The notes beneath the pieces are model-generated. The model was not told where the DNA came from, made no database searches, and saw only the letters and a program-made list of their open reading frames with translations. A DNA stretch of 64,000 nucleotides from a virus (lineage: Duplodnaviria > Caudoviricetes), in the IMG/VR virus record IMGVR_UViG_3300010885_031309, one strand, 5' to 3'. Below, piece after piece: positions 26,091-57,288 of this stretch (positions are counted from its first letter, which is position 1; every line of letters begins with the position of its first letter). The position numbers were made by a program, and so were the translations under genes.

Positions 26091-26501
26091 TCATTGTTCA
26101 TCCAATAGCATTATAGGATCGCCACCGGCATCTCCTATTATTTCAAACCCATAATTTTTATACCAATCAACGATACTGAACTCATTACTTTCATGTACAT
26201 CAGCAATTAACAGTATCGCTTCAGCACCCCTGTCATATGAATCATCTATAGCATTATTTAGCAGATTGCTACCTAAACCCTGCCCTCTTGAATCATCATC
26301 AATATACATGTTCTTAATAATACTTATTCTGCCAAATTTACTAGCGATATTGTTTATCAGTTGTTCAGATGCACCTTGAGATTCTAAGTAATTTTTCAAT
26401 TGTGACTTATCAGTGTCTACCACGTAACCCTCAAGTGCACCACCATCAATACTTTTTGATATCATTTGTATAGATTCGATTAGTAATTCTTTGATCTTCA
26501 T
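26091..26501 (-). CDS. GNAT acetyltransferase with CTS-like N-terminus
   Basis: MYIDDDSRGQGLGSNLL (motif A), WYKNYGF; MKIKELLIE. Confidence 0.8.
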   Translation of the reverse strand: MKIKELLIESIQMISKSIDGGALEGYVVDTDKSQLKNYLESQGASEQLINNIASKFGRISIIKNMYIDDDSRGQGLGSNLLNNAIDDSYDRGAEAILLIADVHESNEFSIVDWYKNYGFEIIGDAGGDPIMLLDEQ

Positions 26502-26503
26502 AA

Positions 26504-27946
26504 TTACATCACAAATATTTTACCAACGCTGTCACTCAACACATCATTGAACAACAATTCCATTGTATATGCTAAACGTTCGGCTTTTTGCTTTCTTGAA
26601 AGTTCATCACGATATTCAGGTTTAATGTTTAGATATTTTGTAGGTGTTCCCCATGCTTGTCTTCCGTAACCTAAATTAGTTGGTAATAGATTAAACGTGA
26701 CTTTGCCTGTGCCTAAATATTGTGCAAATATTTCATATAAGAATTCATATGGACGTTTAATCTGATTACTTCTACTACTACGTTGTGTGCCTAATGCATT
26801 GAACAGTGCATTATACTCGGGGGTCAAATCCCACTTGATTAGAGTATTGTATGTGTTTGCACCCCTATATGCTTTGCCATAGTGTTCTTCTAACACTGAA
26901 TTTACAGTTTCAAAGAAATACTTTTCTGCTTCAGCCCAAGCCTTCCAATTCTTGTTTTCATATGCAGCCTCTGCCCCTATAGCGTGTCCAAATCTATGTG
27001 CCATCATCCATGGCGTAAGCATTACTTTACTATCACCCTTGTTGCCCACATACACTACAGTTATAGCATCTTCACTGCCATTGATAATTTCTTCAGCCTG
27101 TTCTTTACCAAAAATTTGCATAATCTGCTCTGGGGGCATTGCACCGTATTCACTATACTTCCCAGTGCCGGGCACGTTACTAAAGAATAAACGGAAATCG
27201 TAGGGTGTTTTTTCAAAGAATGTAGTAGCTTTTTCTATGTTCTTGGGATGTGGCACAAGGTTTTTATCTGCTCCGCGAAATGGTCCTGGCTTAGTAAAGT
27301 CACCAAACGGTTGATACTTGGCTAATGCCATTTCACCTACTGTGTCTTCCGCCACGCCTTGGTTTGGTCTGCTTAATGTATGCTTTTCTGTTCTATAATC
27401 GTATGTAGCACCTAACTTCTTATATATTTCTCTTGCTGCGTTGTTATGGTCTTGATCAGAAATGATATTGTAGTGCTTGGACAATCCTTTTAGAAAGTCA
27501 GTGTAAATGCCTTTGCCTCTTAACTTTTCATCAAAGACTTCAGAGTATTGAACTTCAACCGTATCGTTGTAAACATCGGCCCAAACACCTAATACTGTTT
27601 TACCTTTACTGTCTTTCACTCTAATAAAGGTGTTTGCTTCAGCGCCAGATTTCCAGGGTACTTCGTCACCGGGTTCAAATGACCATGTGTAGCCCGATGG
27701 TGTTTTGCCGCTGACAGATTCCGTAACATCTTGCTTGTCAAGTTTCTCTAAACGATGTATCTCATCGGCAACCTGTGTCCAATAACGATATTGTGGAGTA
27801 TTACTTTCATAACTCATGGCATGGTCGTTGGCACGTTGAGCAGCAGTATAGGAATGATCTTTATACCGATCATACATTCGTTTTGCCGTTGACTTTACTT
27901 CTAAGTCACTGGAATTATTTTCAACAATAAAATCATTTGCTCTCAT
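26504..27946 (-). CDS. Multidomain putative internal (poly)protein containing a GNAT-like module
   Basis: Start MRANDFIVE; internal DVTE/GVAE motifs; LRGKGIYTDF...IYKKLG. Confidence 0.65.
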   Translation of the reverse strand: MRANDFIVENNSSDLEVKSTAKRMYDRYKDHSYTAAQRANDHAMSYESNTPQYRYWTQVADEIHRLEKLDKQDVTESVSGKTPSGYTWSFEPGDEVPWKSGAEANTFIRVKDSKGKTVLGVWADVYNDTVEVQYSEVFDEKLRGKGIYTDFLKGLSKHYNIISDQDHNNAAREIYKKLGATYDYRTEKHTLSRPNQGVAEDTVGEMALAKYQPFGDFTKPGPFRGADKNLVPHPKNIEKATTFFEKTPYDFRLFFSNVPGTGKYSEYGAMPPEQIMQIFGKEQAEEIINGSEDAITVVYVGNKGDSKVMLTPWMMAHRFGHAIGAEAAYENKNWKAWAEAEKYFFETVNSVLEEHYGKAYRGANTYNTLIKWDLTPEYNALFNALGTQRSSRSNQIKRPYEFLYEIFAQYLGTGKVTFNLLPTNLGYGRQAWGTPTKYLNIKPEYRDELSRKQKAERLAYTMELLFNDVLSDSVGKIFVM

Positions 27947-49600: not shown

Positions 49601-50107
49601 TTTAGTTCCTTCGGTAGTATACTAAGTATATAGAATAATTGTAGAGTTGAATAGCTATGCCCAAGTATGACATATACTAAAGTACTAGTATGTTATACTG
49701 TAAAAAAATAGTGTTCAACACAACAGTAACTAATTTTAGTAGTGTTTGTATTAATATACAAATTCAAAATCATTGGTGTTTGATCTAGATCAAGAACATA
49801 CTGTTCCAATCTAAGATCATGTCGTTTTCTCAGTCTAAATGAATTATTTCTTAGAATTTTGTTTAATCTTAACGATTACAAATTGAGCATCGTATAAGTT
49901 ATCGTCTCCTTCCGTTACTTCATCAATATACTCAGCAATCATTAAATCTTGTAGAGCAATTGACAATTTAAATTCTTCTTGAGTCAATGATTGTTGCCAT
50001 GCGTTCAACTCGGTGACCGAATTGATTGACCACATTTTTACAATCATCTCACGCTGTCGCGTTGTTAGATTGTCTATGTTCACTCGTGTTAAAAGATAAT
50101 TATGACT

Positions 50108-50392
50108 TTAGTGTAATACTTCTACTATATTTCCAAAATCATCAATTGCTTTTTTCAGTTCTTCAGGAGACCAACCATTATCTACAAGAATTTCTATCAT
50201 TCTGGTGTAGAGTGTAAAGCATGCCATACCAGGAACATAATTCTCGTCGTTGTTTTCAAAGTCAAACTTTTCCAATTTTGGTAGTATGTCATCATCTAAA
50301 AACTCTTCAGCAATATGATGAGTATAATCAAATTCCCAATCTTCGTAAGTAACTTCTTCAGTAGAAATAATTTCGCTGTTGTCGTTTTTCAT
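50108..50392 (-). CDS. Acidic hypothetical protein
   Basis: GGAG RBS; GATAAATA upstream. Confidence 0.55.
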   Translation of the reverse strand: MKNDNSEIISTEEVTYEDWEFDYTHHIAEEFLDDDILPKLEKFDFENNDENYVPGMACFTLYTRMIEILVDNGWSPEELKKAIDDFGNIVEVLH

Positions 50393-50467
50393 TATAAACT
50401 CCTGTATAGACTATAGTATTTATCTACTATAACACTATACGAGAGTAGTGTCACTATTTTTAAGTAA

Positions 50468-50899
50468 TTAGCGATATCTGTAATTTACCGAATCCTGATT
50501 CTCTCTGAATATTACTGCTCCGTTTTTTAGATGAAATTTACGAGCCATTTCTGTTTTTGGACTTAGCGTCACAAAGGTATTGATATCGCTGTATCGCTGA
50601 TTTATTGCAGATAAACATTCACGCAACAATTTAGCTCCATCACCTGGGCGGTAACTCCATATGGAGTAGAAAACGGCAGTAGTTGGGCACGATGATGTTT
50701 TTATCAAATCAGTAACTGATTCAGGAATAAAATCATGCAAACTAATGCACACCATGCTTGTTGGTCGCTGATCTTCTACCAACGCTGCAATAAATCTATT
50801 TTCAGAAACGCGAAATTCTCTTGAAATTTCCGGCCGTACTGGATCATCAGAAACGAACGCGAGAAGTGGGTCTTGTGAGGTAGTAATAAGATGTAGCAT
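50468..50899 (-). CDS. GNAT-like fold hypothetical protein
   Basis: DDPVRP...FYSIWSY..G.G..L..VTLSPKTEMARKFHLKNGA. Confidence 0.55.
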   Translation of the reverse strand: MLHLITTSQDPLLAFVSDDPVRPEISREFRVSENRFIAALVEDQRPTSMVCISLHDFIPESVTDLIKTSSCPTTAVFYSIWSYRPGDGAKLLRECLSAINQRYSDINTFVTLSPKTEMARKFHLKNGAVIFRENQDSVNYRYR

Positions 50900-51006
50900 A
50901 ATAATCGTATTTATGATGTAGTTAAAAAAATAGCATATTATGTGAAAATAGAGACTATAGTATTTCTACCATAGTCTCCATGTCAAAGTTATTTCAAAGT
51001 CTATTT

Positions 51007-52392
51007 TTAGACAACAGCATATCGTGGCTGATTGATTGTGTCAAGCATGATACTTTGTGGTGTAAACTCGCCTGCTGCAAGTATGCTTTTCATAATAGCA
51101 GGACTAAATCCACTGACTAGCGCAACGCCACTCTTGTTAAATTCAACCGGAACATTACTGTGACTACTGAGATTCCAGAATACAATTCGTGGCACGCTGT
51201 ATCCAGCGGCCTCATACTTGCGTTCAATCATCCGAATTGCGCTATCATTATGTGATGTACACTCGTCAAATTGCATGTCACTTAAAATCAAAATATACTT
51301 TGGCATATCCGATGCTGACACCCGCTGATTGACGGCAACGTTCAACACCGCTTCAAAAGCACCATGCAAATTAGTGCTCATGCCCCAATCAGCCGACTGT
51401 AGTTGGCTGCATTTGCTTAGGATATCTCCTCGCAGGACTTCCAATCGTGTATTCTCACTGAAGGTCAAGAACATATCCTTGAATGGTCCACGATTCTTGT
51501 CTGCACAATATAAACCAAGTGCCACACTGATGTCAATGCACTGTAGATTACGATTTCCACCAACAGGACAACACATGCTGCCACTAACATCTACCATAGG
51601 CAGCACATTAGCATCAGACATATAGTTAGGCAATGCCTCCCATTGTGCTGCGGCAACCTCCGCATCTCCTGCACCAATGCTGCGCACAACATCATGTGGG
51701 TATACGGCAGCAGCATTTACCTTGGCTTGTCCAGTCTTTAGTGCCGTCTTGTATGCAGTATACGCAACTGAAGCATTGCGACTAAAAGCCTTTTGATAAC
51801 GTGCAGCCGCCACGCTTGGCACATGACTAAAGTTGATATTATCCCAATCCTTGGCACACATTTGTGTTTCTACAACCTTAGTCAAATTGACCAGTGTCTT
51901 ACGATATTGCTTTGGAGACATACCAAGATGATCGCGCAATTCAATTGCGATATCACCCTTTCTCGGTAGCCACTTAGCACACAGAGCTTGATTATCTGCT
52001 AGTGCTGCGTCAATCATGTCGTATGCCTTGGTCTTGAATTCCTTAGTTTGGAACACAAGTAGATCATCCCAACGTCCCCATTCTGGAACATGCGGTAGTA
52101 CCCGATCCAATGCTTCTGGATGTAGATTTTCCAAATGCAACAGAATGTCACGGAAAATCTGCCGTTCTCCAGCACCACCACGAACATCCCGCGCCCATGC
52201 AGCAACACGAAGTGCTAGTGTGCGATCAAACTGAAATGCTCGTTCAAACTCTGGGACAATTTGCTTTCCACGACTTGCGCCGATCTTGTAAAAAAGATCC
52301 ACCACTGGGTTTGTGGTTGACTCTAGTGCCGCCATACCGTTAGTGGTACGTGCTTCTACTACTGTGCTTTGTACTGCTTGTGCGAATGTCAT
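51007..52392 (-). CDS. TROVE-like/vWA protein (DUF2828-like, Ro60-related architecture)
   Basis: RDVRGGAGER, GRWDDL, AKWLPR, VDVSGSM (MIDAS), FLTFS, STNL, ILSDMQFD, FWNL, SGFSP. Confidence 0.85.
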   Translation of the reverse strand: MTFAQAVQSTVVEARTTNGMAALESTTNPVVDLFYKIGASRGKQIVPEFERAFQFDRTLALRVAAWARDVRGGAGERQIFRDILLHLENLHPEALDRVLPHVPEWGRWDDLLVFQTKEFKTKAYDMIDAALADNQALCAKWLPRKGDIAIELRDHLGMSPKQYRKTLVNLTKVVETQMCAKDWDNINFSHVPSVAAARYQKAFSRNASVAYTAYKTALKTGQAKVNAAAVYPHDVVRSIGAGDAEVAAAQWEALPNYMSDANVLPMVDVSGSMCCPVGGNRNLQCIDISVALGLYCADKNRGPFKDMFLTFSENTRLEVLRGDILSKCSQLQSADWGMSTNLHGAFEAVLNVAVNQRVSASDMPKYILILSDMQFDECTSHNDSAIRMIERKYEAAGYSVPRIVFWNLSSHSNVPVEFNKSGVALVSGFSPAIMKSILAAGEFTPQSIMLDTINQPRYAVV

Positions 52393-52522
52393 TTCTTTTT
52401 TCCTTTCAGATTAAAGCCCACTTGGGCGATTTTTATACTATAAACTAATTGCTGAATTTAATCTAAGATATAACAGGATGAGCGATACAGATAATTTATT
52501 TGCTGTACTCATCCTACAAAAA

Positions 52523-52551
52523 ATTATACTACACGTTCTTCTGCATTTCAA
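52523..52551 (-). promoter_or_regulatory. sigma70 promoter for the hairpin 2 / hairpin 1 / DUF2828 transcript
   Basis: TTGAAA-17-TATAAT; predicted +1 (~52516) coincides with the first base of hairpin 2. Confidence 0.65.
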
Positions 52552-52748
52552 TAACTTTCGGCTATTCTCTCAGTTGTAGTAGTATAAAAAACAACAGGGT
52601 AGTTTTTGCCTTTTTAGTTCAAGTGAGAAGTCTAACTCACCTTAACTGAACGAAAACAAGATACGCTTCGCTGATTTCTCAGTGCTTATCATGTTTACTT
52701 TAACAGTCGTTGCTGTAATAGAATTCGCTGAACCTACCCTAAAACTCA

Positions 52749-53171
52749 CTAATTTTGTCCTTGATTCTCACCCAGATCATTTTCAAAGATATAGTGGCCA
52801 CCACGCCGACTTTGAACCCAACAGAAACTCCACAACATGTTGTTTTTCATCATGGCTTCAATAATATCTTCGTTGCCACTCCACCCCGCGGTGGAAATAT
52901 TATATTGCCTGAGAGTTTTGCTAGAGTTGTCATCTTTGATCTCTACCTCATGCCATCCCCAGCTAGCAAGATGCCACACTGACTTGATGAACTCAAACCA
53001 GCCACTGGCATCCTCCCAATCCCAAATTTCAATTGCCCTCAAACAATCACGTGTGGGATATCCATCGTTGTCTAATAGATTATTGTCGGCTAAGATACTA
53101 TCTACTTCAGAAATTACGCTTTCGCGCCTCTGTTGTGTCAGATGACGAAACTCTACAATTTTTTCGTTCAT
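52749..53171 (-). CDS. Trp-rich conserved phage hypothetical protein
   Basis: ISTAGWSGNEDII.AM...W...RGGHY. Confidence 0.6.
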   Translation of the reverse strand: MNEKIVEFRHLTQQRRESVISEVDSILADNNLLDNDGYPTRDCLRAIEIWDWEDASGWFEFIKSVWHLASWGWHEVEIKDDNSSKTLRQYNISTAGWSGNEDIIEAMMKNNMLWSFCWVQSRRGGHYIFENDLGENQGQN

Positions 53172-53317
53172 ATCTTATCCGAGAAATAATCAAATTAACA
53201 CATAATCTTCTTTACCACAGCCACACTCTGGGCACACAAAGTCATCGGGAAGTGTTTCCCACACGCCTTCTAGCTCTTCGTTGTGTACGTGATCACATAC
53301 TACACAAACATGATCCA

Positions 53318-53767
53318 TTATAGTGTCTCCAATACTTCTTTGTACGCAGCGGCATGTCGCTGCTCAACTTTTGTCAATGCAGAAAAACGCTTTTCAGCCT
53401 TGAGTAGAACAGCCCTAAATTGTTCAGCATGTTCACGACTCTCTGCTGTTTGCTCTGCTGCAATGTTCGCAGCTTCTAGCTCGCCCTCACGCATTGCCAA
53501 TGATTGAAATTGTGGATACATTTCAGTGTACTCATATGTTTCACCAGCGATTGCCTTTTCTAGGCATTCCTTAGTTGATGGTTTACCAACTAGCAATTCA
53601 AGATGACTCCACGCATGTAGAATTTCCTGATCCGCTGTGTATTCAAAATGCTTTGCTACTTCCTCAAAGCCCTCTGCACGTGCCAACTTAGCAAAGTAAC
53701 GATACTTTACGTGAGCCATGCTTTCGCCGGCCAATGCCGACTCAAGGTTTTTTAGTGTTACTGACAT
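53318..53767 (-). CDS. rbr: Rubrerythrin (ferritin-like, no rubredoxin domain)
   Basis: TLKNL..ALAGES.A..KY.YFA..A..EG, QEILHA, GETYEYTEMYP, ESREHA, VEQRHA. Confidence 0.9.
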   Translation of the reverse strand: MSVTLKNLESALAGESMAHVKYRYFAKLARAEGFEEVAKHFEYTADQEILHAWSHLELLVGKPSTKECLEKAIAGETYEYTEMYPQFQSLAMREGELEAANIAAEQTAESREHAEQFRAVLLKAEKRFSALTKVEQRHAAAYKEVLETL

Positions 53768-53928
53768 ATATTCCTTTTTGTAAAAATAAAACGGGATAGT
53801 TTTTGTCTTTTTAGTTCAAGTGAGAAAACTAACTCACCTCGTCAGGCGAACCCGATCATCCATAGTTTTATAAAATTCGCTGAACCTATCCCAAATCTGT
53901 TTGTTGTTGCGATTTATGTATTATGTCA

Positions 53929-54117
53929 TCATTTGACTTTGTTTTCAACTGTTTTGGATGTATTACTTGACTTAGTTTTAACCAAGTTAGCGAGATTCAT
54001 CCATACCAATCTACTATTGTCTGGGCGATGAACTTCAACAAAATCAACGCCATCAACGCGGCGCCGATTATCAAAGTTTTCACACACCCACATTTCACCA
54101 GTGCGAGGATTAGCAAG
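53929..54117 (-). CDS. Hypothetical protein
   Basis: MKTKSVTL...; AAGGAG RBS. Confidence 0.5.
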   Translation of the reverse strand, partial: LANPRTGEMWVCENFDNRRRVDGVDFVEVHRPDNSRLVWMNLANLVKTKSSNTSKTVENKVK

Positions 54118-54150
54118 AGTTACAGATTTTGTCTTCATAAATATTCTCCT

Positions 54151-54639
54151 TTATGTCGCAATGGCACGAATGCCAACAATTTCTTTCCAACGGTCCGCAG
54201 CATACGATGCAGCAAAAGCACGTGGCTTTACCAATGGCACTACATTACACATGCCCTTTACATAACCAATAGCTTCATTAACAACGATGCTGCTGTTATG
54301 CATTTCATTTGGATTAATGTCCAAGTGAACCTCAACATCAAACGGTACCTCTTTTGCCAACGCTAGATATAGATTGCTGACACGATATACTTCATTCATT
54401 AGTCGCATGCGAGGGCGATCAGCACGTTGATCATAATCACGCTCACGATCAACAGCACCGAAGATTTTACATCCATTTTTGCCATTGACATGTATAACAA
54501 CCGCAGTAATATAATCAGCATACCAAACATTGTTATACTGTAGTCGTTCACTGTCGCAACCAATGTAGATTTTTGTATTGTCGGCCAGATTTTCGCAAAA
54601 TGCGACAACTTCATCAATGTCAATATGCTTCTTATGCAT
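54151..54639 (-). CDS. RNase H-like YkuK family protein
   Basis: IYIGCDS...RLMNEV...EVHLDIN...FAASYAAD. Confidence 0.8.
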   Translation of the reverse strand: MHKKHIDIDEVVAFCENLADNTKIYIGCDSERLQYNNVWYADYITAVVIHVNGKNGCKIFGAVDRERDYDQRADRPRMRLMNEVYRVSNLYLALAKEVPFDVEVHLDINPNEMHNSSIVVNEAIGYVKGMCNVVPLVKPRAFAASYAADRWKEIVGIRAIAT

Positions 54640-54651
54640 GATTATATCTCC

Positions 54652-54939
54652 TTAAAAAACATCATGTCTCTTTGGTTTATTTCTTTCACTGCGGTCTTTA
54701 ATCTTATTTAGATACTCGCGGCCAACTCTACCCGATTCAATATCATTTAGTGCCACTTTAGTTGGAATATGCTGTTGCTTTCGTTGCTCTAAATATTCAT
54801 TCACACTCATATCACTATTTTTCATAGCATCATCTTCGTGCTTGCGAATGCGATGTAGTTCACGCAAACGCTCACTGGCAACCAGAATTAAATCAAATCT
54901 GTTACCAATCATGTCACACATTTTGTTAAAATCATTCAT
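54652..54939 (-). CDS. rpoZ: RNA polymerase omega subunit-like protein
   Basis: IGNRFDLILVASERLREL...PTKVALNDIESGRVG. Confidence 0.78.
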   Translation of the reverse strand: MNDFNKMCDMIGNRFDLILVASERLRELHRIRKHEDDAMKNSDMSVNEYLEQRKQQHIPTKVALNDIESGRVGREYLNKIKDRSERNKPKRHDVF

Positions 54940-54974
54940 ATTTTATCCTAAGTATAATGTTAAATTATAGTATG

Positions 54975-55751
54975 TTATATTATTTTGTCAAGTAAGCTGT
55001 CAACTATTTTACGGCGATGTTCTGAATTCTTGGCACCCATTACTATTAAGAAATATCTAGTGTTATTGTGTACAAACAACATGGTCAAACATCTACCAGC
55101 CGAATTTGTAAATCCAGTTTTGGCTGCCACGATATTTAATCGCCCAGCATACCAATTAGTATTGTTGCTCTGTATCAATACGCTTTTTTTGAGTCCCATA
55201 GCACTGAAAAGCGTAGACCTGACATTAGCCGCCATTTTGTACACCGCCCAATTCTCTACTTCAAGTACTAATTTTTTAATGTCATCTGCACTGCTTTTAT
55301 TATCAGATAATAATCCAGTTGTATCACTGTATCTAGTATTACTCATGCCCAATTCTTGGGCTAATTGATTCATAGTAGCAAGAAAAGCAGTGTATCCACC
55401 TGGAAAAGTTTCTGCTAGTGTTCTGGTCGCAAGATTATCACTTGAAATAAGAGCCAACTCAATCAAATGATTACGGGTAATCTTCATCCCGGATCTTATA
55501 TGTTTACTGGATTCTTTACCTACAACAGTTAACACTTCATCTAAGTCTAGATTGCCTCGTAATACAACCAACACACTCATTAACTTTGTAATACTGGCTA
55601 TAGAACGAATTTGTGCCTCGTTATGACTATCAACTACAACATTGTTGTCTAAATTCAATAACATATAAGACGGAATAGACTCAGACACTCTCTGTGCAGA
55701 ATAACAATTCAATCCAAAAAGAATTAACAATAATGCAATTACAACTCGCAT
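54975..55751 (-). CDS. Peptidase S11 D-Ala-D-Ala endo/carboxypeptidase (PBP7/PbpG-like), secreted
   Basis: Signal peptide; SIASITKLM (SxxK), SDN, KTGFTNSAGRCL. Confidence 0.9.
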   Translation of the reverse strand: MRVVIALLLILFGLNCYSAQRVSESIPSYMLLNLDNNVVVDSHNEAQIRSIASITKLMSVLVVLRGNLDLDEVLTVVGKESSKHIRSGMKITRNHLIELALISSDNLATRTLAETFPGGYTAFLATMNQLAQELGMSNTRYSDTTGLLSDNKSSADDIKKLVLEVENWAVYKMAANVRSTLFSAMGLKKSVLIQSNNTNWYAGRLNIVAAKTGFTNSAGRCLTMLFVHNNTRYFLIVMGAKNSEHRRKIVDSLLDKII

Positions 55752-56144: not shown

Positions 56145-56234
56145 TGGCGGATAGTGAGGGATTCGAACCCCCGAGGATATCGCTACCCTAACTGCTTAGT
56201 AGGCAGCCGCCATCGTCCACTCGGCCAACTATCC
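56145..56234 (-). tRNA. tRNA-Ser with anticodon ACT (ACU), CCA encoded
   Basis: GGATAGT/ACTATCC acceptor, G73, GCTGC-CTACTAA-GCAGT anticodon arm, long variable arm, TTCGAAT T-loop. Confidence 0.85.
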
Positions 56235-56637: not shown

Positions 56638-57288
56638 TTAATTTTTAAAACTCTTTCCGTGTTTCCTTGTTTCATTATACTCAATCACATATTTTTTCCA
56701 TAGCATAGTCAATCTAGGCTGTGAAGTTTTTATGGATTTAGCAAACGAAGTCACAGATTTGCAATCTGATTTAAGAAAAGTTTCATATAATTGATATGCC
56801 AATTTTCTTGATTCTTCATTTCTATCTGTTAAATAGTCTTCTCTTGATCTTAAATTTTCTTTATCAAAATTTATAACTCTACCTAACTCCCATCCTTCTT
56901 CAACTTTGAAATTTTTTGGGACTCTTTTTGACAGTCTCAACTTTTTATTGTGAATCCAAAAAGAGCCATATTGAGAATTATTTTCTCCTGATTGAGCAAA
57001 AGACATTGCTTCAGATAATTTTCTGCGTAGCCAGCCATATAATTTGTTGGATGGTCTGTCTGGAATCATCATTGCGGCTGCCTTTACCAAGGCAAAATTT
57101 TTTGGATACATTTTGACTAATAGTTGATGAGCAACATAATGTTCTTCAGGTGTTAATGGTGCCAAATTAGAAGGATCATCAGATCCACCCAAACATTTGG
57201 GAACAATATGATGATACTCAACATAATCACTTAATGATCTTGATTTAGCCTTTTCAATCAAAAGATTGTAGTGTTTTACATAATTCAT
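56638..57288 (-). CDS. Free-standing HNH homing endonuclease
   Basis: YVEYHHIVPKCLGGSDDPSNLAPLTPEEHYVAHQLL; GENNSQYGSFWIHN. Confidence 0.88.
   Translation of the reverse strand: MNYVKHYNLLIEKAKSRSLSDYVEYHHIVPKCLGGSDDPSNLAPLTPEEHYVAHQLLVKMYPKNFALVKAAAMMIPDRPSNKLYGWLRRKLSEAMSFAQSGENNSQYGSFWIHNKKLRLSKRVPKNFKVEEGWELGRVINFDKENLRSREDYLTDRNEESRKLAYQLYETFLKSDCKSVTSFAKSIKTSQPRLTMLWKKYVIEYNETRKHGKSFKN

What the first reader, a model, noticed from the sequence alone, without database searches (positions are those of the whole stretch)
51007..53893. TROVE/vWA (Ro60-like architecture) gene preceded by four related hairpin RNAs
Four elements on the transcribed strand have different stem sequences that still pair (AGATTAAA/TTTAATCT, AGGATGAG/CTCATCCT, AGGGTAG/CTACCCT, GGGATAG/CTATCCC). 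Each 5' arm is followed by an invariant T(A/T)CAGC(A/G)A. Copies 3 and 4 also share a ~32-nt hairpin segment (GGTGAGTTAGnnTTCTCACTTGAACTAAAAAG). A TTGAAA-17-TATAAT promoter starts exactly at copy 2, and copy 1 ends at the RBS of the TROVE/vWA gene. Established: Ro60/Rsr TROVE proteins bind the terminal stems of adjacent Y RNAs. Inference: a phage RNP system in which the DUF2828-like protein binds a novel class of stem RNAs, acting as Y-RNA analogues or autoregulatory sites.
Basis: partly seen in the sequence, partly recalled or inferred. Interest (0 to 1): 0.75.

Follow-up and report, generated by a model that had tools for sequence, protein, structure and literature searches.

The report
Phage Ro60-like protein with partner RNAs
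A freshwater phage encodes a ring-shaped relative of the RNA-binding protein Ro60, preceded by four small structured RNAs of a widespread RNA family absent from Rfam 15 and from the papers I searched; they are probably the protein's RNA partners, a viral variant of the Ro60/Y-RNA particle.

Summary
All four elements lie on the minus strand at the stated places. They are the only such elements in the 64-kb window.

They belong to a large RNA family with a fixed frame: a 7-bp terminal stem, 2 nt, then YCAGCRA, a variable body, the 3' arm, then G(UU).
- In 60 distinct related phage loci, 54 carry at least one element within 800 nt upstream of the homologous gene. In 43 an element ends just before the ribosome-binding site.
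- My scanner found 223 elements on the gene strand, 8 on the opposite strand, and 6-17 in shuffles.
- A covariance model built only from relatives recovers copies 2, 1 and 4 as the top window hits. In Listeria phage P100 and Salmonella phage Felix O1 its only genome-wide hits lie next to the homologous gene.

The protein (Pfam DUF2828 + DUF7788) folds like Ro60: the top 12 PDB matches are all Ro60/TROVE proteins. Many relatives' RNAs carry tRNA-like bodies, and one matches Rfam YrlA below threshold.

Best reading (about 60%): these are Y-RNA-like partners of the protein, and the gene-proximal copy also serves as a leader. Binding is inferred, not shown. Rfam 15 has no family for these RNAs. 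Two papers only guess that such RNAs exist. This scan has already reported the same family on other DNA many times.

The parts
51007..52392 (-). Gene for a 461-aa Ro60-like protein: an N-terminal helical-repeat domain (DUF2828) and a C-terminal vWA domain (DUF7788) with an intact MIDAS motif D268-x-S270-x-S272
   Evidence: ORF. Pfam DUF7788 at 1e-48 and DUF2828 at 4e-29. phrog_850 'RNA-binding protein' at 3e-150. AlphaFold2 model with pLDDT 76. The Foldseek PDB top 12 are all Ro60/TROVE proteins. The MIDAS residues are invariant in 18 homologues.
52408..52464 (-). Copy 1: the gene-proximal RNA, 57 nt. It has an 8-bp terminal stem, UUCAGCAA and an inner GCCC-AAGU-GGGC hairpin. Its 3' arm ends 3 nt before the ribosome-binding site, so it is a leader element and a candidate operator.
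   Evidence: Sequence. Covariance model R1 built from relatives only: 31.3 bits, E 9e-5. A homologous gene-proximal element is present in 43 of 60 loci. A 95%-identical relative has a different 73-nt body between the same arms (joint 52406/52448).
52475..52515 (-). Copy 2: a minimal 41-nt RNA, little more than the terminal stem and the UACAGCAA motif. It is an internal-deletion derivative (about 200 nt lost) of a roughly 240-nt family member.
   Evidence: R1 gives 41.4 bits, E 4e-7, the best hit in the window. An alignment with L081 and L001 shows that only the first ~21 nt and last ~34 nt of their 240-nt element are kept.
52523..52551 (-). Sigma-70-type promoter TTGAAA-17-TATAAT. The predicted start falls at about the first base of copy 2 and would drive copy 2, copy 1 and the Ro60-like gene.
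   Evidence: Consensus scan, 11 of 12 positions. The surrounding 50 nt (52580-52531) are 88% identical to intergenic DNA of T4-type coliphages JS98 and JS10. Several related loci have a promoter placed the same way before an element.
52596..52740 (-). Copy 3: a 145-nt RNA with a 7-bp terminal stem, UUCAGCGAA, a roughly 80-nt inserted body and the conserved 3' module (GUGAG hairpin, A-rich strand). It is followed by a U-rich tail.
   Evidence: Sequence. The 32-nt module is shared with copy 4. It aligns with class relatives in A3. R1 finds only its 3' half (13.6 bits) because of the long insert.
52749..53171 (-). 140-aa ORF of no known family. It is a cassette gene lying between copy 4 and copy 3 and is absent from the closest relatives.
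   Evidence: ORF. No Pfam or PHROG hit. Absent in L081 and L083. An identical 229-nt contig is present in a lake metatranscriptome.
53190..53767 (-). Rubrerythrin (53767-53318) and rubredoxin (53318-53190) cassette between copy 4 and copy 3
   Evidence: Pfam PF02915 at 1e-18 and PF00301 at 9e-7. Present in L081 and absent in L083, which carries copy-4-type and copy-1-type elements back to back.
53793..53892 (-). Copy 4: a 100-nt structured RNA. It has a 7-bp terminal stem, UUCAGCGAA, a conserved ACUAUGGAUG stretch, hairpin 1 (UCGG / GUUCGC loop / CUGA), hairpin 2 (GGUGAG...CUCACU) and an A-rich 3' strand, followed by a U-rich tail.
   Evidence: R1 gives 28.0 bits, E 5e-4. In a 13-sequence alignment with relatives, 11 of 16 pairs across the three helices show compensatory changes.
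53920..53948 (-). Promoter-like site TTGAAA-17-(TG)CATAAT, 28 nt upstream of copy 4
   Evidence: Consensus scan, 10 of 12 positions with an extended -10 TG. This is a consensus match only.

Best explanation
The four elements are genes or transcript segments for small structured RNAs of one family. Every member has the same terminal module: a 7-bp stem joining the 5' and 3' ends, two nucleotides, an unpaired YCAGCRA next to the 5' arm, an A-rich strand before the 3' arm, and a G(UU) after it. The interior is free to vary. In relatives it is an anticodon-arm-like hairpin, a whole tRNA-like body in normal or permuted (YrlA-like) order, or other hairpins. In this window it is a three-helix body (copy 4), the same with an insert (copy 3), a short hairpin (copy 1) or almost nothing (copy 2).

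I infer that the terminal module is the binding site of the adjacent Ro60-fold protein. This would parallel Ro60, which binds the stem and the 5'-strand motif (GGUCCGA, GNCGAA/CGAA) of Y RNAs. Together they would form a phage ribonucleoprotein.

Transcription from the promoter at 52551-52523 would give copy 2, copy 1 and the mRNA. Copy 1 sits against the ribosome-binding site, so it could be cut off as an RNA partner or serve as an operator through which the protein limits its own translation.

The repeated modules also act as direct repeats between which gene cassettes (rubrerythrin-rubredoxin, ORF140) have come and gone.

Shown: the family, its covariation, its linkage to the gene, and the protein's fold. 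Inferred: expression as discrete RNAs here, binding, autoregulation, and the downstream function (RNA quality control, decoy or counter-defence).
For: - Specificity in the window: only four elements in 64 kb, all within 1.5 kb upstream of the gene on its strand. R1, built from relatives alone, ranks copies 2, 1 and 4 first, and copy 3's 3' half ties for next with a chance-level match; nothing else scores below E 1.
- Family size: in 85 related loci (678 kb) there are 223 elements on the gene strand, 8 on the other strand, and 6-17 in shuffles.
- Linkage: 54 of 60 distinct loci have at least one element within 800 nt upstream, and 43 of 60 have a gene-proximal one.
- Covariation: 6 of 7 terminal-stem pairs change on both sides, with a covariation score of 0.70 against 0.17 in shuffles and 0.05-0.11 for slid partners. 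The internal helices of the copy-4 class also covary.
- Non-circular linkage tests by whole-genome R1 search. In P100 (131 kb) the only 2 hits lie 227 and 315 nt upstream of the homologue. In Felix O1 (86 kb) the only 2 hits lie 345 and 512 nt downstream. In RSP15 the 3 hits lie within 3.7 kb.
- Pattern search: of 80 IMG/VR loci matching a 14-nt 5' pattern, 35 also have the 3' arm. Of these, 14 have the gene in the fetched stretch, and 3 of 5 others tested have it elsewhere on the contig. None of the 45 chance matches has the gene.
- Protein fold: Ro60/TROVE-vWA, with the top 12 PDB hits all Ro60 and an intact MIDAS motif.
- Y-RNA likeness: a relative's 116-nt element with T arm, hairpin and D arm matches Rfam YrlA end to end at 35.7 bits, E 2e-6. 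Copies 3 and 4 carry CGAA inside CAGCGAA, the core of the Ro-binding motif described in PMC4201824 and PMC12135203.
- Precedent: Thermus phage phiLo Ro60 binds two Y-like RNAs encoded upstream of its gene (PMC12135203).
Against: - No binding or expression data exist for this phage. The one metatranscriptome that holds related words covers none of the four RNAs.
- The protein does not match the Pfam TROVE model. By sequence it reaches PDB TROVE chains only at E 0.8.
- No window copy matches YrlA or any other Rfam family even at E 10. The family motif is CAGCAA rather than GNCGAA.
- In many relatives the gene lies inside tRNA arrays. Part of the linkage could therefore come from shared residence in the tRNA region. 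In Vibrio phage nt-1 the single model hit is 9 kb from the gene.
- Bas63 gp130, the Ro60-like protein of another Felix O1-type phage, counters the ppl defence when expressed alone from a plasmid or from T7 (preprint 10.1101/2024.10.10.617714). I tested the family homologue only in Felix O1 itself, not in Bas63. If gp130 is a homologue, at least that activity may not need the phage's own RNAs.
- Copy 2 is a deletion remnant and may be non-functional.
Confidence: 0.6

Rival explanations
1. The elements are processing or termination punctuation of the tRNA-region operons. They would be tRNA-like stems recognised by host RNases (RNase P, E or III) or acting as leaky terminators that cut polycistronic transcripts. 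They would have no specific tie to the Ro60-like protein. The linkage would arise because the gene lives in the tRNA region.
For: - In many relatives the elements are interspersed with dozens of tRNAs on the same strand, up to 4 kb from the gene.
- The stems are 7 bp like acceptor stems, and the elements are spaced by short U-rich linkers.
- Copies 3 and 4 are followed by U-rich tails.
Against: - This window has a single tRNA, 2.2 kb further upstream, yet keeps four elements stacked on the gene.
- In P100 and Felix O1 the only genome-wide model hits are beside the gene rather than spread through the tRNA arrays.
- The conserved unpaired CAGCAA and the A-rich strand are not features of known RNase P, E or III sites (my knowledge).
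- Gene-proximal copies lack U tails.
Confidence: 0.15
2. The RNAs act on their own as tRNA decoys. Their anticodon-arm-like or tRNA-like bodies would soak up host anticodon nucleases or tRNA-modifying enzymes. The shared terminal module would serve only stability or processing, and the neighbouring protein would work independently.
For: - 31 of 68 short relatives contain a 5-bp stem with a 7-nt loop of anticodon-loop form, such as CUUUUAA, CUUCUAA or CUUGUAA, against 0.9 expected from shuffles.
- Other relatives carry full D, anticodon and T arms.
- gp130 of Bas63 works alone against ppl.
Against: - None of the four window copies has an anticodon-arm-like hairpin or a recognisable tRNA body.
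- Copy 2 has essentially no body at all, yet keeps a perfect terminal module. This suggests the module itself is the selected part.
- The module stays conserved from Listeria phages to freshwater phages while the bodies vary freely. That points to a common binding partner.
Confidence: 0.1
3. The elements are selfish or recombinogenic intergenic repeats, like the promoter-early stem-loop (PeSL) cassettes of T4-type phages. Their main effect would be to shuffle gene cassettes, with no function as RNA.
For: - Copies 4 and 3 are direct repeats (shared 5' ~20 nt and 3' ~50 nt) flanking the rubrerythrin-rubredoxin-ORF140 block.
- Relatives with 89% and 84% identical proteins lack ORF140, or lack all three genes, exactly between such elements.
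- Promoters sit next to copies 2 and 4.
Against: - There is strong compensatory covariation in the stems.
- Strand bias is strict, 223 against 8.
- An unpaired motif is conserved across phages of unrelated hosts.
- Sub-threshold matches to YrlA and to Class I RNA models indicate selection on an RNA structure.
- Cassette turnover is better read as a by-product of the repeats.
Confidence: 0.05

Closest known systems
Ro60 (Rsr) with Y RNAs, especially bacterial and phage YrlA (Rfam RF02553; Chen et al. 2014, PMC4201824) and Thermus phage phiLo Ro60 with Yrl1/Yrl2 (PMC12135203)
   Same: - A ring-type helical-repeat plus vWA protein.
- One to several small RNAs encoded next to it on the same strand.
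- Each RNA is closed by a stem pairing its 5' and 3' ends, with a short conserved motif in or next to the 5' strand and a variable, often tRNA-like interior.
- In phiLo the RNAs also lie upstream of the gene.
   Different: - The protein is not recognised by the TROVE sequence model; it belongs to Pfam DUF2828/DUF7788.
- The conserved motif is YCAGCRA after a 7-bp stem plus 2 nt, not GNCGAAN0-1G in a bulged helix.
- The window copies have no tRNA-like domain and no Rfam YrlA match.
- Relatives show far more body types and copy numbers, and often sit inside large tRNA arrays.
- Binding is untested.
Class I RNAs of Dictyostelia (Rfam RF01414; Kjellin et al. 2021, PMC7919456)
   Same: - A short RNA of about 42-65 nt with a short terminal stem whose sequence varies but whose pairing is kept.
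- An unpaired conserved motif directly after the 5' arm that ends in ACAGCAA.
- A CUGU at the 3' end whose C pairs with a conserved 5' G.
- A free interior.
- Short relatives of the window's elements hit RF01414 over the full length at 26.2 and 21.7 bits.
   Different: - Those RNAs are eukaryotic, nuclear-encoded, driven by the DUSE promoter and linked to development, and their known binder is the RRM protein Rnp1A.
- The scores are below the gathering threshold of 41.5.
- No window copy reaches E 10.
- Whether dictyostelids have a DUF2828-type protein bound to them could not be tested here, because organism names were hidden.
Bas63 gp130, the Ro60-like protein of a Felix O1-type coliphage (PhageMaP preprint 10.1101/2024.10.10.617714)
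   Same: - A Ro60-like fold, with the gene next to a tRNA array.
- The authors guess that some neighbouring 'tRNAs' are Y RNAs.
- Felix O1 itself encodes a homologue of the window protein (40% identity, E 1e-92), and the only two model hits in its genome lie just after that gene.
   Different: - gp130 has a measured phenotype: it counters the ppl defence, also when moved alone into T7.
- Nothing is measured for the window's protein.
- I did not test Bas63's own sequence.
- In Felix O1 the RNAs follow the gene, whereas here they precede it.
Listeria phage CKA15 gene CKA15_055 and nearby abundant non-coding transcripts (PMC12282133)
   Same: - CKA15_055 lies at the place homologous to the P100 homologue of the window protein (36% identity).
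- The authors note an HHpred match to Rsr and propose that nearby abundant RNAs are Y RNAs.
- I find three tandem family members at 25552-25290, directly upstream of the gene.
   Different: - The region the paper names as most transcribed (26,236-26,727) holds no family member.
- Whether the three elements are among the paper's abundant transcripts is not stated in the text I read.

Membership tests
Ro60 / TROVE-vWA proteins | Ring of helical repeats followed by a vWA domain (three-dimensional fold) | tested here: met
   AlphaFold2 model with pLDDT 76 and pTM 0.70. The 12 best Foldseek PDB matches are all Ro60/TROVE chains, aligned over about 500 columns: 9kop at E 4e-8 and TM 0.56, 9l5y, 2nvo, 9nen, 1yvr, 1yvp and 2i91.
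Ro60 / TROVE-vWA proteins | Match to the TROVE sequence family (Pfam PF05731) | tested here: not met
   Pfam reports only DUF7788 and DUF2828. A profile search of PDB sequences reaches TROVE chains only at E 0.78, over 38 residues.
Ro60 / TROVE-vWA proteins | MIDAS motif (DxSxS) in the vWA domain | tested here: met
   D268, S270 and S272 are invariant in 18 homologues, as are T340 and D372.
Ro60 / TROVE-vWA proteins | Binds Y RNA stems and misfolded RNA ends | not testable with these tools
   Needs EMSA, CLIP or RIP.
Y RNA / YrlA (Rfam RF02553) | Encoded close to, and on the same strand as, the Ro60-type gene | tested here: met
   All four copies lie within 1.5 kb upstream on the gene strand. 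The same holds in 54 of 60 related loci, and in P100 and Felix O1.
Y RNA / YrlA (Rfam RF02553) | Stem formed by the 5' and 3' ends, kept by compensatory change | tested here: met
   6 of 7 pairs show changes on both sides in 63 relatives, and 5 of 7 in the copy-4 class. Caveat: the elements were selected for pairing. The independent support is 223 against 8 hits by strand and 6-17 in shuffles.
Y RNA / YrlA (Rfam RF02553) | Ro-binding motif GNCGAAN0-1G / CGAA near the 5' end | tested here: inconclusive
   Copies 3 and 4 have CAGCGAA, which contains CGAA. Copies 1 and 2 and most relatives have CAGCAA. The motif definition is taken from PMC4201824 and PMC12135203.
Y RNA / YrlA (Rfam RF02553) | tRNA-like domain (T arm, hairpin, D arm) and a score above the Rfam gathering threshold | tested here: not met
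   No YrlA hit in 50000-55000 even at E 10. ARAGORN finds no tRNA-like gene there. A relative (L053:3867-3980) reaches 35.7 bits against a threshold of 69.
Dictyostelid Class I RNA (Rfam RF01414) | Short terminal stem, an adjacent conserved motif ending in ACAGCAA, and a 3' CUGU | tested here: met
   Copy 2 has an 8-bp stem, UACAGCAA and CUGUU. Copy 1 has UUCAGCAA and CUGAA. The features are as described in PMC7919456.
Dictyostelid Class I RNA (Rfam RF01414) | Score above the Rfam gathering threshold (41.5 bits); eukaryotic gene with a DUSE promoter | tested here: not met
   No hit in the window at E 10. The best relative scores 26.2 bits. The context here is a bacteriophage with sigma-70-type promoters.

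The most novel reading that the evidence does not exclude
The terminal module (short stem, unpaired ...ACAGCAA, 3' CUGU) is the recognition signal of the whole DUF2828/DUF7788 protein family, in eukaryotes as well as phages. On this reading the enigmatic Class I RNAs of Dictyostelium would be the cellular counterparts of these phage RNAs. Both would belong to an unrecognised second branch of Ro/Y-RNA particles shared by viruses and eukaryotes.
Probability: 0.08. Interest if true: 0.9.

Novelty: new variant of a known kind. Interest (0 to 1): 0.68.

Why it matters
The DUF2828/DUF7788 family (phrog_850) is found in 711 of the 50,697 cultured-phage records searched and in thousands of metagenomic proteins. 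Its Pfam domains are named 'of unknown function', although the PHROG family and several phage records label it 'RNA-binding protein'.

A defined RNA partner family would make the protein's biochemistry directly testable: a 41-nt natural minimal version such as copy 2 is an obvious binding substrate. It would also extend the Ro60/Y-RNA system to a much larger set of viruses. It would give a mechanistic lead for the reported counter-defence activity of a Felix O1-type homologue. And it would explain many unannotated 'gaps' in phage tRNA regions.

The tRNA-like bodies of relatives suggest an interplay with tRNA-directed host enzymes or defences.

Tried and rejected
- **Hammerhead ribozyme.** Copy 4 contains CUGACGA followed by a hairpin and GAA. 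There is no Rfam hammerhead hit at E 10, and the core is not conserved in relatives. Rejected.
- **Known RNA families.** An Rfam 15 scan of 50000-55000 at E 10 returned only chance-level hits.
- **Close cultured relatives.** Megablast of 24 kb against 50,697 phage records found none.
- **Whole genome of the window.** None is held.
- **Expression.** One lake metatranscriptome held 6% of the words. Laying its contigs showed only a 229-nt identical piece over ORF140 and conserved bits of relatives, and nothing on the four RNAs. Contigs cannot show RNA ends in any case.
- **Sequence-level link to Ro60.** A profile against PDB sequences gave only E 0.78. The link needed the fold search.
- **A DUF2828-type protein in Dictyostelium.** The AlphaFold DB cluster search hides organism names, so this could not be tested.
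- **Literature on DUF2828.** Only plant and tardigrade gene lists were found.
- **CKA15's most transcribed non-coding region (26,236-26,727).** It contains no family member.
- **6-nt arm scan.** Too noisy. It was replaced by a 7-nt arm with G-U rules and a 3' G.

Full report
**What is there**

On the minus strand, a 461-aa gene (52392-51007) is preceded by four inverted-repeat elements:
- copy 1 at 52464-52408 (57 nt);
- copy 2 at 52515-52475 (41 nt);
- copy 3 at 52740-52596 (145 nt);
- copy 4 at 53892-53793 (100 nt).

Each has a 7-8-bp terminal stem of different sequence, and each 5' arm is followed within 0-1 nt by T(A/T)CAGC(A/G)A. I scanned all 64 kb on both strands for a 7-nt arm, this motif and the reverse complement within 320 nt. 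The scan returned these four and nothing else.

The 32-nt block shared by copies 3 and 4 occurs exactly twice, with 0 expected. A TTGAAA-17-TATAAT promoter (52551-52523) ends 7 nt before copy 2. A second promoter-like site (53948-53920) lies 28 nt before copy 4. Copy 1 ends 3 nt before the AAGGA of the gene's ribosome-binding site. Folding of the single sequences is only modestly better than shuffles.

**The protein**

Pfam assigns DUF7788 (vWA-like, 1e-48) and DUF2828 (4e-29), not TROVE. PHROGs places it in phrog_850, 'RNA-binding protein'.

An AlphaFold2 model from an 18-sequence alignment has pLDDT 76. Against the PDB, its 12 best Foldseek matches are all Ro60/TROVE proteins over the full length. 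They are led by Thermus phage phiLo Ro60 (E 4e-8, TM about 0.55), followed by D. radiodurans Rsr, human Ro60 and Xenopus Ro60. The MIDAS residues D268, S270 and S272 are invariant. Sequence alone does not show the relationship (E 0.78). So the protein has the Ro60 architecture but belongs to a separate sequence family.

**The RNAs are a family tied to this gene**

I fetched 85 loci encoding relatives of the protein (53-95% identity). The region just upstream of nearly every gene shows the same frame with different stems, for example AGGTTAA, AGGATGC, AGAATGC, AGATTAG or TGGTTGG, each with its exact complement.

The frame is a 7-nt arm, 2 nt, YCMGCRA, the complementary arm with at most one G-U, then G. 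A scanner for it gave the following.
- It found 223 elements on the gene strand, 8 on the opposite strand, and 6-17 in shuffled sequence.
- Among 60 distinct loci with enough upstream sequence, 54 have at least one element within 800 nt upstream, most often two or one, and up to five.
- 43 of those 60 have one ending 45 nt or less before the start codon.

In an alignment of 63 short members, 6 of 7 stem pairs show changes on both sides. The covariation score is 0.70, against 0.17 for shuffles and 0.05-0.11 for slid partners. Because members were selected for pairing, I give more weight to the strand and shuffle controls and to the following independent tests.

**Independent tests**

I built covariance model R1 only from those 63 relatives and ran it over the whole window without filters.
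- The best hits were copy 2 (41.4 bits, E 4e-7), copy 1 (31.3 bits) and copy 4 (28.0 bits).
- Copy 3 was found only in its 3' half (13.6 bits, tied with a chance-level match) because of its long insert.
- Nothing else scored below E 1.

Whole-genome searches of cultured phages with R1 gave these results.
- Listeria phage P100 (131 kb): exactly two hits, 227 and 315 nt upstream of the homologous gene.
- Salmonella phage Felix O1 (86 kb): exactly two hits, 345 and 512 nt downstream of it.
- Ralstonia phage RSP15: three hits within 3.7 kb. The scanner finds six there.
- Vibrio phage nt-1: one hit, 9 kb away.

In the reverse direction, I searched IMG/VR with a 14-nt 5' pattern.
- Of 80 loci returned, 35 also have the 3' arm.
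- 14 of these carry the gene within the fetched stretch, and 3 of 5 others tested carry it elsewhere on the contig.
- None of the 45 chance matches has the gene.

**What the bodies look like**

The terminal module is constant and the interior is not.
- Short members (49-62 nt) often hold a 5-bp stem with a 7-nt loop of anticodon-loop form: 31 of 68, against 0.9 in shuffles.
- Members of about 100 nt hold D, anticodon and T arms in tRNA order.
- Members of about 115 nt hold a T arm, a hairpin and a D arm in the permuted order of YrlA. One of these (L053:3867-3980) matches Rfam YrlA end to end at 35.7 bits, E 2e-6, below the threshold of 69.
- Many relatives place the gene inside arrays of dozens of tRNAs.

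The window's copies belong to other classes.
- Copy 4 is a conserved three-helix RNA. In a 13-sequence alignment, 11 of 16 pairs show compensatory changes.
- Copy 3 is the same class with an inserted body of about 80 nt that itself contains further ACAGCAA and TCAGCGAA remnants.
- Copy 1 is a short version of the gene-proximal class. A relative with a 95%-identical protein carries a different 73-nt body between the same arms.
- Copy 2 is an internal-deletion derivative of a class of about 240 nt. It keeps only the first ~21 nt and last ~34 nt, that is, essentially the module alone.

**Cassettes**

A relative with an 84%-identical protein (L083) has a copy-4-type and a copy-1-type element back to back. 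One at 89% (L081) has rubrerythrin and rubredoxin between a copy-4-type and a copy-2-type element. The window has in addition ORF140 and copy 3. Copies 4 and 3 are thus direct repeats around a three-gene block. I read cassette turnover as a by-product of the repeated modules, not as their function.

**How it most likely works**

I draw an analogy with Ro60. It binds the terminal stem and a 5'-strand motif of Y RNAs (GGUCCGA; GNCGAA or CGAA in bacteria and phage phiLo). On that basis I infer that the Ro60-like protein binds the terminal module, and that the RNAs' bodies provide the variable, often tRNA-mimicking, effector part.

The promoter in front of copy 2 would give one transcript: copy 2, copy 1, then the mRNA. 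Copy 1, pressed against the ribosome-binding site, could be released as an RNA or could act as an operator for translational feedback. I put about 60% on the partnership as a whole, and about 40% on the autoregulation detail.

The rivals are:
- operon punctuation, 15%;
- free-standing tRNA decoys, 10%;
- recombinogenic repeats without RNA function, 5%.

All three are weakened by the same facts. The window has almost no tRNAs yet keeps four elements on the gene. Copy 2 keeps the module but not a body. And there is covariation and strict strand bias.

The points against the main reading are these.
- There is no binding or expression evidence. The one metatranscriptome was uninformative.
- There is no TROVE sequence match.
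- The motif differs from the canonical one.
- Bas63 gp130, of the Felix O1 type, counters the ppl defence when expressed alone (preprint 10.1101/2024.10.10.617714).

**Comparison with what is known**

The closest known system is Ro60/Rsr with YrlA-type Y RNAs, including phage phiLo. This case works like it, but the window's RNAs fail YrlA membership: they have no tRNA-like domain and give no Rfam hit.

The module also resembles the Class I RNAs of dictyostelids (short covarying stem, a motif ending in ACAGCAA, 3' CUGU; PMC7919456). Short relatives hit that Rfam model at 26.2 and 21.7 bits, below the threshold of 41.5. I could not test whether that resemblance is more than convergence.

Two publications guess that Y RNAs accompany such phage proteins without identifying them. 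In CKA15 I find three family members directly upstream of CKA15_055.

This scan has reported the same protein-RNA pairing on many other genomes. From those notes I took the leads to the Class I RNAs and to the PhageMaP preprint, and I checked both myself.

**Verdict**

The finding is real and the reading is supported. It is a new variant of a known kind (Ro60/Y-RNA). It is well defined computationally and still needs a binding experiment.

Noticed in passing
window 52531-52580 (-): The 50 nt around the promoter in front of copy 2 are 88% identical to unannotated intergenic DNA of T4-type coliphages (JS98, JS10 and about 50 more Escherichia phage records), although the rest of the window has no near match to any cultured phage.
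   Followed up: no
window 53190-53767 (-): A phage-borne rubrerythrin plus rubredoxin pair (oxidative-stress-type auxiliary genes) sits as a cassette between two of the RNAs. It is present in some close relatives and absent in others.
   Followed up: partly
window 52749-53171 (-): A 140-aa ORF with no Pfam or PHROG family, absent from the closest relatives. An identical 229-nt contig occurs in a lake-water metatranscriptome.
   Followed up: partly
window 52596-52740 (-): Copy 3 contains further internal copies of the motif (ACAGCAAC closely followed by CTGTT, and TCAGCGAA). This looks as if collapsed remnants of other family members are nested in its body.
   Followed up: no
window 56145-56234 (-): This is the only tRNA in the window. 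ARAGORN calls it tRNA-Ser with anticodon ACT, an unusual A at the wobble position. A homing-endonuclease-like gene lies just upstream at 56638-57288.
   Followed up: no
L211 (Listeria phage cka15, OR088597.1) record 26236-26727: The region reported as by far the most transcribed in CKA15 (small ORFs 059-061, probably non-coding) is not a member of this RNA family. It remains unexplained here. It lies between two tRNAs, about 1 kb upstream of the three family members.
   Followed up: partly
L005, L026, L029, L053, L063, L076: In these relatives the Ro60-like gene sits inside same-strand arrays of about 20-30 tRNA genes, interspersed with short family members whose hairpin loops look like anticodon loops (UUU, UCU, UGU, CAU, UAU).
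   Followed up: partly
PMC12282133, Table 1 (CKA15_055): The Listeria phage homologue was detected by mass spectrometry in purified virions (20 peptides, 57% coverage). This raises the possibility that the protein is packaged and delivered with the DNA.
   Followed up: no
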